From Octopus vulgaris (taxonomy: Eukaryota), in contig OX597826.1 in NCBI GenBank assembly GCA_951406725.2, positions 69,254,001 to 69,318,000 of the forward strand: a stretch of DNA of 64,000 nt. Direction: 5' to 3'. Each line of letters starts with the position of its first letter. Position 1 is the stretch's first letter. Below are positions 15,224 through 62,450 of the stretch, piece after piece. The notes beneath the pieces were generated by a model. The model ran no database searches. It saw only the letters and a list, made by a program, of their open reading frames with translations, and had not been told where the DNA came from. Both the position numbers and the translations under genes were made by a program.

Positions 15224-15267
<44 letters not shown>

Positions 15268-15475
15268 GATAAATATCAAAGTGAGTTATATACAGTAGCG
15301 GTAACACATCTTGACGTATTTTTGCCATTTCAATATGGCTAACCCCTAAGGGTGGATGCTACTGTAGTTTTTAGCCCCAGGAGGACACACTCCTCCAGCT
15401 GGCCATAGACACACTATCTGTGTCCTGTCAGTATTTGCAAAGGGAAGTCATCCTTCCCGTCTTCAACTTATGATA

Positions 15476-15520
15476 CACACGGACTCGAGTTTCGAGGTAT
15501 TGACCTCTCGTCAGCGTGTG
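15476..15520 (-). ncRNA. Type-I hammerhead ribozyme (canonical core)
   Basis: Exact reverse complement of 16153-16197. Confidence 0.9.
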
Positions 15521-15829
15521 ACAATCATAGTTGTCGCCGAGAATTAGATTTCCTTCACAAATACTTATACTTTTTCCAGCGCCCACTGTCGCTGATATTG
15601 AAAAAGTGAAATCAAACAATGATAAATATCAAAGTGAGTTATATACAGTAGCGGTAACACATCGTGACGTATTTTTGCCATTTCAATATGGCTAACCCCT
15701 AAGGGTGGATGCTACTGTAGTTTTTAGCCCCAGGAGGACACACTCCTCCAGCTGGCCATAGACACACTATCTGTGTCCTGTCAGTATTTGCAAAGGGAAG
15801 TCATCCTTCCCGTCTTCAAACTTATGATA

Positions 15830-15874
15830 CACACGGACTCGAGTTTCGAGGTATTGACCTCTCGTCAGCGTGTG
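15830..15874 (-). ncRNA. Type-I hammerhead ribozyme (canonical core)
   Basis: Exact reverse complement of 16153-16197, one monomer away from 15476-15520. Confidence 0.9.
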
Positions 15875-16152
15875 ACAATCATAGTTGTCGCCGAGATTTA
15901 GATTTCCTTCACAAATACTTATAGGAGGAGTGTGTCCTCCTGGGGCTAAAAACTACAGTAGCATCCACCCTTAGGGGTTAGCCATATTGAAATGGCAAAA
16001 ATACGTCACGATGTGTTACCGCTACTGTATATAACTCACTTTGATATTTATCATTGTTTGATTTCACTTTTTCAATATCAGCGACAGTGGGCGCTGGAAA
16101 AAGTATAAGTATTTGTGAAGGAAATCTAATTCTCGGCGACAACTATGATTGT

Positions 16153-16197
16153 CACACGCTGACGAGAGGTCAATACCTCGAAACTCGAGTCCGTGTG
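16153..16197 (+). ncRNA. Type-I hammerhead ribozyme (canonical core)
   Basis: CACACG-CUGACGA-GAGGU(CAAU)ACCUC-GAAA-CUCGAG-U-C^-CGUGUG: 6-bp stem I, 5-bp stem II, palindromic stem III ACUCGAGU, GUC triplet, predicted cleavage after 16191. Confidence 0.92.
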
Positions 16198-16357
16198 TAT
16201 CATAAGTTGAAGACGGGAATGATGACTTCCTTTGCAAATACTGACAGGACACAGATAGTGTGTCTATGGTCAGCTGGAGGAGTGTGTCCTCCTGGGGCTA
16301 AAAACTACAGTAGCATCCACCCTTAGGGGTTAGCCATATTGAAATGGCAAAAATACG

Positions 16358-16414
<57 letters not shown>

Positions 16415-19790: not shown

Positions 19791-21143
19791 ATTATTTCTT
19801 TACTACCCACAAGGGGCTAAACACAGAGGGGACAAACAAGGTCATACAAACGGATTAAGTCGATTAGATCGACCCCAGTGCGTAACTGGTACTTAATTTA
19901 ATCGACCCCGAAAGGATGAAAGGCGAAGTCGGCCTCGGCGGAATTTGAACTCAGAACGTAACGGCAGACGAAATACCTATTTATTTACTACCCACAAGGG
20001 GCTAAACACAGAGAGGACAAACAAGGACAGACAAACGGATTAAGTCGATTATATCGACCCCAGTACGTAACTGGTACTTATTTAATCGACCCCGAAAGGA
20101 TGAAAGGCGAAGTCGGCCTCGGCGGAATTTGAACTCAGAACGTAACGGCAGACGAAATACCTATTTATTTACTACCCACAAGGGGCTAAACACAGAGGGG
20201 ACAAACAAGGACAGACAAACGGATTAAGTCGATTAGATCGACCCCAGTACGTAACTGGTACTTATTTAACCGACCCCGAAAGGATGAAAGGCGAAGTCGG
20301 CCTCGGCGGAATTTGAACTCAGAACGTAACGACAGACGAAATACCTATTTATTTACTACCCACAAGGGGCTAAACACAGAGGGGACAAACAAGTACAGAC
20401 AAACGGATTAAGTCGATTAGATCACGAACCTCAGTCGAACGGTACTTATTGAATCGACCCCGAAAGGATGAAAGGCGAAGTCGGCCTCGGCGGAATTTGA
20501 ACTCAGAACGTAACGGCAGACGAAATACCTATTTATTTACTACCCACAAGGGGCTAAACACAGAGGGGACAAACAAGGACAGACAAACGGATTAAGTCGA
20601 TTATATCGACCCCAGTACGTAACTGGTACTTATTTAATCGACCCCGAAAGGATGACAGGGGAAGTCGGCCTCGGCGGGATTTGAACTCAGAACGTAACGA
20701 CAGACGAAATACCTATTTATTTACTACCCACAAGGGGCTAAACACAGAGAGGACAAACAAGGACAGACAAACGGATTAAGTTGATTATATCGACCCCAGT
20801 GCGCAACTGATACTTATTTAATCGACCCCGAAAGGATGAAAGGCAAAGTCCGCCTCGGCGGAATTTGAACTCCGAACGTAACCGCAGACGAAATACTTAT
20901 GTCTTTACTACCCACAAGGGGCTAAACACAGAGAGGACAAACAAGGACAGACAAACGGATTAAATCGATTATATCGACCCTAGTGCGTAACTGGTACTTA
21001 ATTTAATCGACTCCGAATGGATGAAAGGCAAAGTCGACCTCGGCGGAATTTGAACTCAGGACGTAGCGGCAGACGAAAGCATTTAGTAACGGCAGACTAA
21101 GCATTTCGCTCGGCGTGCTAACGTATCTGCCAGCTCGCCGCCT
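19791..21143 (-). repeat. SINE family C with its body amplified as a 7 x 184-bp tandem array
   Basis: tactacccacaagggg starts at 19801, 19986, 20170, 20354, 20538, 20722 and 20906; single tRNA-like head GGCGGCGAGCTGGCAG at ~21143 on the minus strand. Confidence 0.95.
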
Positions 21144-22440: not shown

Positions 22441-22769
22441 GCAGATAGATACATATATATTATATATAAATAAATATGTACTCACATATAAGTGGTGATG
22501 TATATAAATGCATATATATAAACATACATATATATATATAATAGAAATATTAAAATTACTAAGTCTCTCTAAAAGAGAACAACGGCAGCGTTCCCGGAAA
22601 ATAATAGTTATTGCCATACTAATATGGCATTCTTATAAAAATAAGAATAAAGCTGTCCGCTTATTAGCTCCATAAGGCCATCGCCTTAAGTTAGCTATTT
22701 GATACACAAACTCTATCCATATAACCTTCGAACAAGGGAGGTCAGTCGCTCCACAGTACTTGACCGGCA

Positions 22770-22811
22770 GCTACAGACGCGTTTCGGGGTATTGCCCCTT
22801 TTCAATGTAGC
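22770..22811 (-). ncRNA. Minimal type-I hammerhead ribozyme, U3-A8 variant
   Basis: Exact reverse complement of 23165-23206. Confidence 0.85.
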
Positions 22812-23164
22812 GTAGCCAGACCAGTAGGTGTCGCTTCTGACAATCTCTGTTCGAAGGTTTTATTTACCTAGCTTGTTTACCTTGTTTTCAATAATAGAAA
22901 TATTAAAATTACTAAGTCTCTCTAAAAGAGAACAACGGCAGCGTTCCCGGAAAATAATAGTTATCACCATACTAATATGGCATTCTTATAAAAATAAGAA
23001 TAAAGCTGTCCGCTTATTAGCTCCATGCCGTTGTTCTCTTTTAGAGAGACTTAGTAATTTTAATATTTCTATTATTGAAAACAAGTGGATGTATTCCACC
23101 GAAGCTAGGTAAATAAAACCTTCGAAAAGAGATTGTCAGAAGCGACACCTACTGGTCTGGCTAC

Positions 23165-23206
23165 GCTACATTGAAAAGGGGCAATACCCCGAAACGCGTC
23201 TGTAGC
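23165..23206 (+). ncRNA. Minimal type-I hammerhead ribozyme, U3-A8 variant
   Basis: GCUACA-UUGAAAA-GGGG(CAAUA)CCCC-GAAA-CGCG-U-C^-UGUAGC: 6-bp stem I, 4-bp stem II, palindromic ACGCGU stem III, GUC triplet, predicted cleavage after 23200. Confidence 0.87.
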
Positions 23207-23369
23207 TGCCGGTCAAGTAGTGTGGAGCGACTGACCTCCCTTGTTCGAAGGTTATATGGATACGGTTTGTGTATCAAATAGCTAACTTAAGGCGATGGCC
23301 TCATGGAGCTAATAAGCGGACAGCTTTATTCTTATTTTTATAAGAATGCCATATTAGTATGGCGATAAC

Positions 23370-23406
<37 letters not shown>

Positions 23407-26722: not shown

Positions 26723-27083
26723 AGATCCTTCGACTATCGCGGTGGTTAGGTTCTAAAACCCTCCATGATTGGTGAAGTAGAAATAGTACTGTACTGCATA
26801 TTTTTTTTGATTATTTTTATAAGTTGTATATATCTATTTAATTATACATGCAAGACAACACCACGGAGGAATCGACGTAAGCTGAAATAGTAAACATCGA
26901 ACTCATAGCACTGACAGCCGGAACGAATAGCAGAGGCTAGCAGTTAGTTTTACGTCCTAAATTGTATATCACAAGATTTCGTGAACGACCAGACTATCGG
27001 ATATTGTTACACATCCGATATTTATGTGTGTGTTTGTGTTTGTGTTTGTGAACTTATTATATATCTGTGTGTGTGTGTATGTA

Positions 27084-27177
<94 letters not shown>

Positions 27178-27291
27178 GTGCAATAAATAAAATATATGCA
27201 TGCATACAAACATATATGTACGTACCTACATCTACATGTATATATACATGCATATATAAACATATATACGTGTGTACAGGATACCACATAT

Positions 27292-27460
27292 AGACGTAGA
27301 ACTCAACGAGAAACGAAAAAGTAAAAACAGCATGGAACGGACCATTTTTTTAACAACGAAAAAACAGAGTACAAGACAACTACACAAGGAAAAATCGCCT
27401 TCATCAGCTGTCCCTAGTTCAACTCCAGCGTGTTTCGAAGATATATATATATATATATAT

Positions 27461-27548
<88 letters not shown>

Positions 27549-27627
27549 AGATATAGATATATTGAAAGGTACAATGAATAAACACTCCAATCGGTCAAAA
27601 CAACTTTATGTCATTCCAGTATTATCA

Positions 27628-27689
<62 letters not shown>

Positions 27690-27950
27690 TTAGATAGAAA
27701 GGTAGATATGGAATAGTTTGCACCAATATTATGTATTAGAGGTCTTTCCATGATAAGAAGGCGTTGACATTGTTGTCATAATCTGTTACTTTTCTAATTT
27801 TTGTACACGTTATTGTTCAACCTATGTTATCTACATCAAGGTCGTCATTTTTGTTCCACCGTCGCCAGAGTTTCTCCCGCTTTTATCAAATCATGATATG
27901 TAATTGCGAATTTAGATACGCGTGTTTACATACATAAACCTGCAGAAAGA

Positions 27951-27982
<32 letters not shown>

Positions 27983-28150
27983 GGCGCACGCGTGATTGTG
28001 TGGTTAGAAGCGTGTTTCGCAGCCACATGATTCCGGATTCCGGGTTCATTCCCACTGCGTGGAACCTTCGTCTAGTGTCATCTGCTATAGCCTCGGCCGA
28101 CCAGAGCATTTTGAATGGATTTGGTAAACGGTAACTGAAATAAACCCTTC

Positions 28151-28195
<45 letters not shown>

Positions 28196-28556
28196 GTGTG
28201 TGTTTGTGTATTTGTGCGTGTGCGTCTGTGTTTGTCCCTCCGCCATCACTTGATAACCGATGTTGGTGTGTTCACGTCACTGTAACCTAGCGAGTATTCA
28301 AATTACCCTGATAAAATAAGGACTAGGCTTATACAGAATAAGTCTTGGGATCGATTTCTTCGAGTAAATTTGGTGCACCAGCATGGCAGACGTAGAACTC
28401 AACGAGAAACGAAAAAGTAAAAACAGCATGGAACGGACCATTTTTTTAACAACGAAAAAACAGAGTACAAGACAACTACACAAGGAAAAATCGCCTTCAT
28501 CAGCTGTCCCTAGTTCAACTCCAGCGTGTTTCGAAGATATATATATATATATATAT

Positions 28557-28644
<88 letters not shown>

Positions 28645-28723
28645 AGATATAGATATATTGAAAGGTACAATGAATAAACACTCCAATCGGTCAAAACAAC
28701 TTTATGTCATTCCAGTATTATCA

Positions 28724-28785
<62 letters not shown>

Positions 28786-29046
28786 TTAGATAGAAAGGTA
28801 GATATGGAATAGTTTGCACCAATATTATGTATTAGAGGTCTTTCCATGATAAGAAGGCGTTGACATTGTTGTCATAATCTGTTACTTTTCTAATTTTTGT
28901 ACACGTTATTGTTCAACCTATGTTATCTACATCAAGGTCGTCATTTTTGTTCCACCGTCGCCAGAGTTTCTCCCGCTTTTATCAAATCATGATATGTAAT
29001 TGCGAATTTAGATACGCGTGTTTACATACATAAACCTGCAGAAAGA

Positions 29047-29078
<32 letters not shown>

Positions 29079-29246
29079 GGCGCACGCGTGATTGTGTGGT
29101 TAGAAGCGTGTTTCGCAGCCACATGATTCCGGATTCCGGGTTCATTCCCACTGCGTGGAACCTTCGTCTAGTGTCATCTGCTATAGCCTCGGCCGACCAG
29201 AGCATTTTGAATGGATTTGGTAAACGGTAACTGAAATAAACCCTTC

Positions 29247-29291
<45 letters not shown>

Positions 29292-61628: not shown

Positions 61629-62450
61629 AAGCGACGAGCTGACAGGGTCGTTAGCACTCCGGGAAAATTGCTTAGCGTTATTTCGTCCGTCGCTACGTTC
61701 TGAGTTCAAATTCCGCCGAGGTCGACTTTGCCTTTCATCCATTGGGGGTCGATTAAATAAGTACCAGTTACGCACTGGTGTCGATGTAATCGACTTAATC
61801 CGTTTGTCTGTCCGTGTTTGTCCTCTCTGTGTTTAGCCCCTTGCGAGTAGTAAAGAAATAGGTATTTCGTCTGTCGCTACGTTCTGAGTTCAAATTCCGT
61901 CGAGGTCGACTTTGCCTTTCATCCTTTCGAGGTCGATTAAATAAGTACCAGTTACGCACTGGTGTCGATGTAATCGACTTAATCCGTTTGTCTGTCCTTG
62001 TTTGTCCTCTCTGTGTTTAGACCCTTGTGGGTAGTAAAGAAATAGGTATTTCGTCTGTCGCTACGTTCTGAGTTCAAATTCCGTCGAGGTCGACTTTGCC
62101 TTTCATCCTTTCGGGGTCGATAAATTAAGTACTAGTGAAACGCTGGGGTCGATGTAATCGACTATTCCCTTCCTCCAAATTTCAGGTCTTGTGCCTATAG
62201 TAGAAAGGATATTACAAGCAGTTTTAAGGCAATGAGCTGGCAGAATCGTTAGCACGGTGATCGAAATGCTGAACGAAATTTCGTCCGCCTTCACGCTACG
62301 AGTTCAAATTTCGCTGAGGTCAACTTTGCCTTTCATTTTTTTTTTCGGGGTCATTAAACTACATATTAGTCAAGCACTGCGGGTCGATTTAATCGACTTA
62401 CCCATTCATCCCAAGCTGCTGGCCTCGTGCCAAAATTTAAATGTAACATT
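61629..62450 (+). mobile_element. SINE family C with 3 tandem 184-bp units plus a diverged adjacent copy
   Basis: tatttcgtc(c/t)gtcgctacgttctgagttcaaattcc at ~61679, 61863 and 62047; a new head at ~62228. Confidence 0.9.

What the first reader, a model, noticed from the sequence alone, without database searches (positions are those of the whole stretch)
22540..23375. Second, unrelated ~353-bp monomer with a compensatory U3-A8 hammerhead
Seen: core UUGAAAA instead of CUGANGA, a double change C3U and G8A, with perfect stems and a GUC triplet, in both arms. Established: positions 3 and 8 form a tertiary Watson-Crick pair, so U3-A8 is a compensatory variant and good evidence of selection for catalysis. 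I see no sequence similarity to the 15.3-kb element apart from a CAAUA stretch in stem-loop II, yet monomer length (353-363 bp), architecture and TA target match, suggesting a shared mobilising machinery or size constraint (inference).
Basis: partly seen in the sequence, partly recalled or inferred. Interest (0 to 1): 0.82.

Follow-up and report, generated by a model that had tools for sequence, protein, structure and literature searches.

The report
Retrozyme family toggling its hammerhead core
This is one copy of a young, protein-free jumping repeat with a predicted self-cutting RNA; its swapped core pair (U-A for C-G) is a known variant, but related repeats in the same genome carry C-G, U-G or U-A at that spot, and the insertion shape suggests that a Penelope-type enzyme likely pastes them in.

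Summary
The U3-A8 type I hammerhead is real in both arms. Three points need correcting. The monomer is 363 nt; 353 comes from a private 10-nt loss. Helix III is a palindrome predicted to need a dimer. The element is not unrelated to the 15.3-kb repeat: the two are colinear homologues (~51% identity; z 5.5 with the ribozyme left out) and share a hairpin.

It is a metazoan non-LTR retrozyme (1,434 core matches). U3-A8 is published (PMC3088659, PMC4209133).

Across 14 related families sampled in this genome the 3-8 pair is U-A (7), C-G (5) or U·G (2), never C·A, with at least 5 changes on the tree. All helices covary. That is better evidence of selection than two near-identical arms.

Of 44 two-armed insertions, 36 start one arm at each of two fixed sites in (TA)n. 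Arms run through the cut site. This fits priming from both DNA strands by a Penelope-like enzyme on a circular or multimeric RNA. The helper is unidentified; cleavage and expression are untested.

The scan had already noted U3-A8, U3·G8 and twin-armed retrozymes on other DNA of this genome.

The parts
22538..23375 (.). Whole two-armed insertion of a subfamily-A retrozyme (tail-out inverted arms) in a (TA)n tract; one hammerhead per arm, so no complete unit lies between two same-strand ribozymes
   Evidence: (L001)
22538..23027 (-). Left arm, 490 nt (500 in monomer coordinates, m276 through a full unit to m49), more than one unit long; its 3' end is fixed site E2 at 22538
23026..23375 (+). Right arm, 350 nt (m363 to m349); its 3' end is fixed site E1 at 23375
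23026..23027 (.). Inversion junction with 2-nt microhomology
23157..23212 (+). Type I hammerhead: helix I 23165-70/23201-06 plus distal pairs, core U3..A9 23171-77 (U3 = 23171, A8 = 23176), helix II 23178-90 with CAAUA loop, GAAA 23191-94, palindrome ACGCGU 23194-99, predicted cut after C23200
22764..22819 (-). Second, identical U3-A8 hammerhead (core 22805-22799; predicted cut after 22776)
23348..23363 (+). Conserved hairpin GCCATATTAGTATGGC, 12 nt before end E1; shared by the related families; candidate recognition signal for the reverse transcriptase (inferred)
22613..22628 (-). Same hairpin in the left arm
22966..22981 (-). Same hairpin, second unit of the left arm (one mismatch)
22875..22880 (-). 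Private lesion: 16 nt replaced by 6 nt, which gives the apparent 353-nt period
23376..23399 (.). (TA)n target tract on the right; a TA-rich tract also flanks the left end (about 22512-22537). A target duplication cannot be read
15265..16364 (.). Homologous family F insertion (353-354-nt unit) with canonical C3-G8 hammerheads at +16159, -15868 and -15514, palindrome ACUCGAGU and the same hairpin

Best explanation
The element is one recent copy of a non-coding 363-nt repeat family with a U3-A8 type I hammerhead fold, which likely self-cleaves as a dimer and is likely inserted into (TA)n by the reverse transcriptase-endonuclease of a Penelope-like element. SHOWN: family size and youth, tandem 363-nt units, conserved and covarying hammerhead helices, palindromic helix III, two fixed 3' ends, arm pairing, and homology with the 15.3-kb family. 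INFERRED steps: (1) a tandem source locus is transcribed into a multimer; (2) two hammerheads pair through the ACGCGU palindrome and cut after GUC, releasing a unit that is ligated into a highly paired circle; (3) a PLE protein binds the RNA, perhaps at the conserved hairpin, nicks both strands of a TA tract, and primes cDNA on one strand at site E1 and on the other at site E2, 63 nt apart; (4) both cDNAs run through the cut site, so the template is a circle or an uncut multimer, and they are joined at a microhomology to give the inverted two-armed insertion. The 3-8 core pair is under selection to stay paired, not to be C-G; U·G is tolerated as a family-wide state and is a likely stepping stone. 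This particular copy has one ribozyme per strand and is probably not a source.
For: Abundance and youth: 40 scored of 815 candidates, best copies 99% identical; 1,434 core matches, control 0. Core conservation: U3+A8 in 98 of the first 100 of 1,838 free-core matches, 1 C3·A8 copy, 1 chance match; among fetched copies A/B 86 of 87 and C 13 of 13. Covariation: over 10 family representatives 95.7% of cells pair, 11 of 15 pairs show two-sided change, the 3-8 pair is UA 6 / CG 2 / UG 2, and helix III is 100% palindromic; 0 of 500 shuffles reach this and slid controls pair 24-52%. Tree of 35 copies from 14 families, ribozyme core excluded: at least 5 changes of state; C-G rows rejected as one clade (p-AU 2.8e-9) and U·G rows likewise (5.2e-8); sister families E (U-A) and K (C-G) are 92% identical. 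Folding: double hammerhead -34.7 against -15.2 kcal/mol for two monomers forced to form helix III; A, B and F units fold as circles at z -6.1, -7.3 and -6.3. Insertion footprint: 36 of 44 two-armed insertions have E1+E2, 1 has E2+E2, 7 have an unassigned end; 102 of 105 fixed ends abut (TA)3. Of 111 arms, 78 cross the cut site, 4 end within 8 nt of one (5.2 expected), 50 exceed one unit. Candidate helper type: an intact young PLE (RT + CX2-5CxxC linker + GIY-YIG) in the same genome has the same footprint, with a (TA)n target, two ends 40 nt apart, and one of each end in its three two-armed copies L069, L071 and L080. Literature: the anole PLE nicks and extends both strands and starts at two internal sites (PMC11167929).
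Against: No cleavage, ligation, circle or transcript was observed. No autonomous PLE examined shares sequence with the monomer (20 loci) or carries the hairpin. Only 150 of 6,136 GIY-YIG candidates were scored and 52 loci fetched, so the helper is unidentified. Loci were chosen as best hits or pattern hits, which inflates the share of long arms; among the 32 shorter arms 17 cross the cut site, 1 ends at it and 14 stop before it. Rare variants shared by both arms of an insertion are few (3 positions), so a single template molecule is not shown. In vitro the anole PLE did not need hammerhead cleavage. Six of the 14 families (H, I, J, K, M, N) were found with a hammerhead pattern, so their core conservation outside positions 3, 7 and 8 is circular; M and N rest on one copy each. 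The tree backbone is weak (62/88) and the ancestral state cannot be set. U·G 2 against C·A 0 is too few to prove an asymmetry.
Confidence: 0.8

Rival explanations
1. The repeat is mobilised by PLE proteins from uncut linear multimeric transcripts. The hammerhead is slow, protein-assisted or a retained vestige, and no RNA circle is involved.
For: Arms crossing the cut site fit an uncut multimer as well as a circle. The anole PLE used unprocessed RNA and its hammerhead needed protein (PMC11167929). Whole families with U·G cores (D, I) and tandem copies with A6G (L016, L025) have still spread.
Against: All helices, the palindrome and the 3-8 pair covary across families about 50% identical, which needs continued selection on the active fold. 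Units fold as closed rods. Homologous-type retrozymes in mussel, coral and axolotl are abundant circles (PMC7229834).
Confidence: 0.14
2. One reading: an independent family that converged on the same size, architecture and target as the 15.3-kb element because of a shared machinery or size constraint.
For: blastn finds only a 20-nt hit between the two elements; identity is only about 51%.
Against: End-to-end colinear alignment far above shuffles with and without the ribozyme. Intermediate families bridge them (F-G 66%, A-G 53%). The hairpin sits at the same distance from the cut site in the families aligned.
Confidence: 0.03
3. A DNA-level element (MITE, Helitron-like or satellite) whose inverted arms arise by foldback repair, with a hammerhead-like motif as a passenger.
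For: A Helitron-like repeat in this genome carries a fragment of a sister family. Inverted arms could superficially resemble terminal inverted repeats.
Against: The arms end at two different fixed sites with variable 5' truncation and microhomology joins, as in the autonomous PLE. There are no identical terminal repeats. Ribozyme covariation is strong.
Confidence: 0.03

Closest known systems
Metazoan non-LTR retrozymes (Cervera and de la Pena 2020, PMC7229834: passages and section 14 read; Li, Clavereau and Pollet 2026, 10.64898/2026.07.22.740005: part 1 of 5 and passages read)
   Same: Non-coding tandem unit of about 350-390 nt (mussel range), type I hammerhead with 6-bp helix I, 4-bp helix II and a weak palindromic helix III (like axolotl HHR_Amex1: one pair plus a palindromic tetraloop), highly paired unit, co-occurrence with PLEs.
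   Different: The core is U3-A8 ('U3-A8' has 0 occurrences in PMC7229834 main text). The two-armed E1+E2 insertions and the toggling 3-8 pair were not in the parts I read. No pLTR homology was found here, unlike the Xenopus case. RNA was not demonstrated.
U3-A8 hammerheads: Perreault et al. 2011 (PMC3088659, passages) and Schistosoma Cercyon PLE minimal hammerheads (PMC4209133, parts 1-2 of 4 read)
   Same: The same covariation of the 3-8 pair; stated there to be active in vitro (citing earlier work) and to occur in about 1,300 S. mansoni motifs.
   Different: Here it sits in a canonical-size retrozyme hammerhead with an extended helix I, and homologous families show all three paired states, including family-wide U·G.
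Penelope-like elements: Neptune-type insertions and 'tail' (PMC8557442, passages); anole Poseidon in vitro (PMC11167929, parts 1-2 of 4 read)
   Same: (TA)n target, partial tandems, inverted 5'-truncated copy, two 3' ends separated by a tail, both strands nicked and extended.
   Different: No ORF; the tail is 63 nt against the published 30-40; no sequence match to the pLTRs of the PLE families inspected in this genome.

Membership tests
Type I hammerhead ribozyme | Core YUGANRA / GAAA / NUH with paired positions 3 and 8 | tested here: met
   UUGAAAA, GAAA, GUC; 3-8 paired in 10 of 10 family representatives
Type I hammerhead ribozyme | Helices I and II with covariation | tested here: met
   8 of 10 pairs with two-sided changes
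Type I hammerhead ribozyme | Helix III formed in the monomer | tested here: not met
   1 bp plus tetraloop costs +5.6 kcal/mol; this is the known dimer-dependent metazoan form (PMC4209133)
Type I hammerhead ribozyme | Palindromic helix III allowing a double hammerhead | tested here: met
   ACGCGU here; perfect palindromes of different sequence in all 10 representatives
Type I hammerhead ribozyme | Self-cleavage at the NUH site | not testable with these tools
   needs an in vitro assay
Non-LTR retrozyme | Non-coding tandem unit of 170-400 nt with one type I hammerhead per unit | tested here: met
   360-364-nt units, arrays of up to 5 or more; no ORF of 120 aa lies within the element, one AT-rich 140-aa frame only overlaps its left 95 nt
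Non-LTR retrozyme | Dispersed multicopy family with recent insertions | tested here: met
Non-LTR retrozyme | Highly self-paired unit | tested here: met
   circular fold z -6.1 (A), -7.3 (B), 60 shuffles each
Non-LTR retrozyme | Expressed as circular and linear unit-length RNA | not testable with these tools
   no raw RNA reads could be examined
PLE-mobilised non-autonomous element | Insertion footprint: (TA)n target, tail with two 3' ends, inverted 5'-truncated arm | tested here: met
   same footprint in the autonomous PLE
PLE-mobilised non-autonomous element | Sequence homology with the pLTR of an autonomous PLE | tested here: inconclusive
   none by blastn to 20 loci; hairpin not seen at the ends of other PLE families; only a small part of 6,136 candidates inspected; the one link is a U3-A8 minimal hammerhead-like motif in the pLTR
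Autonomous Penelope-like element | RT plus GIY-YIG ORF | tested here: not met
   no ORF in the element

The most novel reading that the evidence does not exclude
This genome holds a radiating retrozyme superfamily in which the catalytic-core tertiary pair 3-8 has repeatedly walked C-G <-> U·G <-> U-A through a viable, family-wide U·G intermediate. It would be a natural record of compensatory evolution inside a ribozyme active site, possibly tuning cleavage rate against retrotransposition. All families would be written into DNA by a PLE dimer that primes both target strands at two fixed sites next to one conserved hairpin on a single RNA circle.
Probability: 0.35. Interest if true: 0.72.

Novelty: new variant of a known kind. 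Interest (0 to 1): 0.5.

Why it matters
The headline swap (U3-A8) is known. The surrounding superfamily supplies matched natural ribozymes with C-G, U-A and U·G at the same core pair, including sisters 92% identical (E and K). This makes the wobble-intermediate route of compensatory evolution, and its cost in cleavage rate, directly measurable. Canonical-core searches would miss the 9 of 14 families with U3. The strict E1+E2 arm pairing gives a genomic prediction for the still unresolved PLE integration mechanism and for how animal retrozymes are retrotransposed.

Tried and rejected
(C3-G8 pattern, 0 hits) was mis-specified by one extra N and is discarded; one search replaces it. One search had too short a gap and found only 7 atypical copies; it was used only as a lead to family E. 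My interim reading that U3-A8 is ancestral with a single reversion in family F was dropped once more families were added: the root and ancestral state are unresolved. Row C_L118 was a chimeric unit and was removed. Row J_L228 is about 15 nt short through a false hairpin match. In one search the four U·G rows under G/J are family I copies and the one U-A row under I belongs to J (resolved, which did not remove duplicates). RNA editing: no A>G excess among rare variants in 31 subfamily-A loci (8 A>G against 5 T>C). A GIY-YIG hit 1 kb from a copy (L063) is a separate insertion, not a joined pLTR. Helper search: the 781-aa PLE and the other Neptune-like families show no homology or hairpin. Sequencing runs: no RNA holder listed. 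Contigs of four other runs show the family without a listed variant at positions 3 or 8, but contigs drop rare variants and say nothing on expression; expression remains open. No match in viral contigs. Literature: kinetic papers on 3-8 exchanges (Przybilski and Hammann 2007; Nelson and Uhlenbeck 2008) are not held, so the activity of U3·G8 is unknown to me from print. Searches for U3-G8/U3G8 and for cephalopod retrozymes gave no paper describing these families; the giant squid genome paper only counts 235 hammerhead hits (passages). The library lacks most subscription papers, and I read no supplements; supplements of the retrozyme papers may list such variants.

Full report
1. Observation. 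The window is G000:C13:69254001-69318000 of a 2.8-Gb, microsatellite-rich animal genome. Its SINEs look like those of octopus (recalled, not tested). Between 22538 and 23375 lies an insertion of two inverted arms in a TA tract. A scan leaving the 3-8 pair free finds GCTACA TTGAAAA GGGG CAATA CCCC GAAA CGC GTC TGTAGC at +23171 and -22805, and three C3-G8 hammerheads in the 15.3-kb element. The U3-A8 core, helices I and II and the GUC triplet are as described. Helix III is the palindrome ACGCGU. In one molecule it is a single pair with a tetraloop, costing +5.6 kcal/mol. Two copies form a double hammerhead at -34.7 against -15.2 kcal/mol for two monomers forced into the active fold. This is the dimer-dependent metazoan form described in PMC4209133.

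2. The family. A search of the genome scored 40 of 815 candidates, the best at 99% identity. The core pattern occurs 1,434 times, control 0. Tandem units are mostly 360-364 nt, mode 363; the 353-nt spacing in the window comes from a private 16-to-6-nt replacement. Three subfamilies A, B and C are 85-88% identical. With the seven core positions left free there are 1,838 matches. Of the first 100 listed, 98 have U3 and A8, one is a C3·A8 copy, one is a chance match, none has C3-G8, and N7 takes four states. Subfamily C changes helix I, helix II and the palindrome (ACAUGU) while keeping pairing and U3-A8.

3. Not unrelated. The monomers of this element and of the 15.3-kb element align colinearly: 136.5 against 61.9 +/- 8.1 for 300 shuffles, and z 5.5 with the ribozyme removed. 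They share the hairpin GCCATATTNNNATGGC. It occurs 18,616 times in the genome, control 10, although 10 of the first 30 loci are a Helitron-like repeat carrying a captured fragment. The hairpin and a hammerhead pattern with positions 3 and 8 free led to further homologous families.

On a tree of 35 real copies from 14 families, built on about 160 nt downstream of the ribozyme, the 3-8 pair is U-A in 7 families, C-G in 5, U·G in 2 and C·A in none. At least 5 changes are needed. The C-G rows and the U·G rows are each rejected as one clade. Sisters E (U-A) and K (C-G) are 92% identical. The backbone is weakly supported, so direction is unresolved. Among fetched copies the states are family-wide: A/B 86 of 87 U-A, C 13 of 13, E 23 of 23, F 7 of 7 C-G, K 9 of 9, and D 24 of 28 U·G, with 3 C-G units in one insertion and 1 U-A; I 4 of 4 U·G.

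Over 10 family representatives 95.7% of cells pair, 11 of 15 pairs change on both sides and helix III stays a perfect palindrome; no shuffle of 500 reaches this and slid controls fall to 24-52%. Relatedness inflates the shuffle test, and six families were found by a hammerhead pattern. But C, D, F and G were found without the core, and positions 3 and 8 were free in the pattern. This is the real evidence for selection on the pair; the two arms in the window are not.

4. How it inserts. All three subfamilies have two fixed 3' ends, E1 (12 nt after the hairpin) and E2 (63 nt further). Of 71 insertions classified, 44 are two-armed: 36 have one arm at E1 and the other at E2, 1 has E2 twice, and 7 have an unassigned end. 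102 of 105 fixed ends abut (TA)3, against 11 of 27 5' ends. The window copy is E2 (left) plus E1 (right) with a 2-nt microhomology. An earlier scan note suggested looking at this pairing; the count is my own.

Of 111 arms, 78 cross the predicted cut site, only 4 end near one (5.2 expected) and 50 are longer than a unit. The template is therefore a circle or an uncut multimer, not a cleaved linear monomer. The sample favours long arms; among the 32 shorter arms 17 cross, 1 ends at the site and 14 stop before it. This footprint matches PLEs (PMC8557442 passages) and the anole PLE, which nicks and extends both strands and starts at two internal sites (PMC11167929).

The genome has a young intact PLE: a 479-aa ORF with no Pfam match and a 781-aa ORF with RT (28.9 bits, just under the 29.6 cut-off), a CX2-5CxxC linker and GIY-YIG. 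It uses (TA)n, has two ends 40 nt apart, and shows one of each end in its three two-armed copies. Its pLTR has a minimal hammerhead-like motif that also reads U3-A8 with palindrome ACAUGU, with a weak helix I. It shares no other sequence with the retrozyme, and neither it nor the other PLE families inspected carry the hairpin at their ends. The helper is therefore unassigned.

5. Mechanism. Inferred: transcription of a tandem source, double-hammerhead cleavage, circularisation, PLE-mediated priming from both target strands at E1 and E2, and microhomology joining. Shown: the sequence, covariation and footprint above. Not shown: cleavage, circles, expression, helper identity, or a single template per insertion (only 3 rare variants shared across arms; no A>G excess). 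The main rival (0.14) is mobilisation from uncut linear multimers with a slow or protein-assisted ribozyme.

6. Comparison and novelty. The element works like, and meets the testable sequence criteria of, metazoan non-LTR retrozymes (PMC7229834; preprint 10.64898/2026.07.22.740005). The RNA criteria could not be tested. U3-A8 is published as a natural, in vitro-active variant (PMC3088659) and in about 1,300 Schistosoma PLE motifs. I found no paper on U3·G8 families or on these cephalopod-type families, within a library that lacks most subscription journals and without reading supplements. The scan's own notes already record U3-A8, U3·G8 and twin-armed retrozymes elsewhere in this genome. Verdict: new variant of a known kind, interest 0.5.

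Noticed in passing
L067:244-5460 (G000:C6 about 133.343-133.348 Mb); also L064-L081: Young two-ORF Penelope-like element (479-aa ORF without Pfam match plus 781-aa RT/GIY-YIG ORF), many intact copies, (TA)n target, two 3' ends, with a U3-A8 minimal hammerhead-like motif in its pLTR.
   Followed up: partly
L140, L141, L153, L155-L157: Second Neptune-like PLE family (four of the six copies 98-99% identical, the others about 90%), (TA)n target, two ends about 32 nt apart, no hammerhead seen.
   Followed up: partly
L083-L085, L090, L099, L106, L108-L111 around 1501: Abundant Helitron-like repeat (3' hairpin then CTAG; label recalled) carrying a roughly 55-nt fragment of retrozyme family G, including the conserved hairpin.
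   Followed up: no
L016 and L025, tandem units: A6G core variant in both tandem units of L025 and two of three units of L016; could reflect an edited or mutated template.
   Followed up: partly
L229: A family-D insertion whose three units read CCGACGA (C3-G8 present but U4C), inside an otherwise U3·G8 family.
   Followed up: no
L213, L231: Further U3-A8 hammerheads with longer helix III in repeats that were not placed on the tree.
   Followed up: no
window 19793-21078 and 61679-62163: 184-bp tandem arrays (7 and 2.6 copies, 94% matches) that look SINE-derived.
   Followed up: no
window about 27078-28193 and 28154-29289: Repeated pattern of microsatellites about 1.1 kb apart, suggesting a recent local tandem duplication or an assembly duplicate.
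   Followed up: no
L153:2276: C3-G8 minimal hammerhead-like motif of another repeat type.
   Followed up: no
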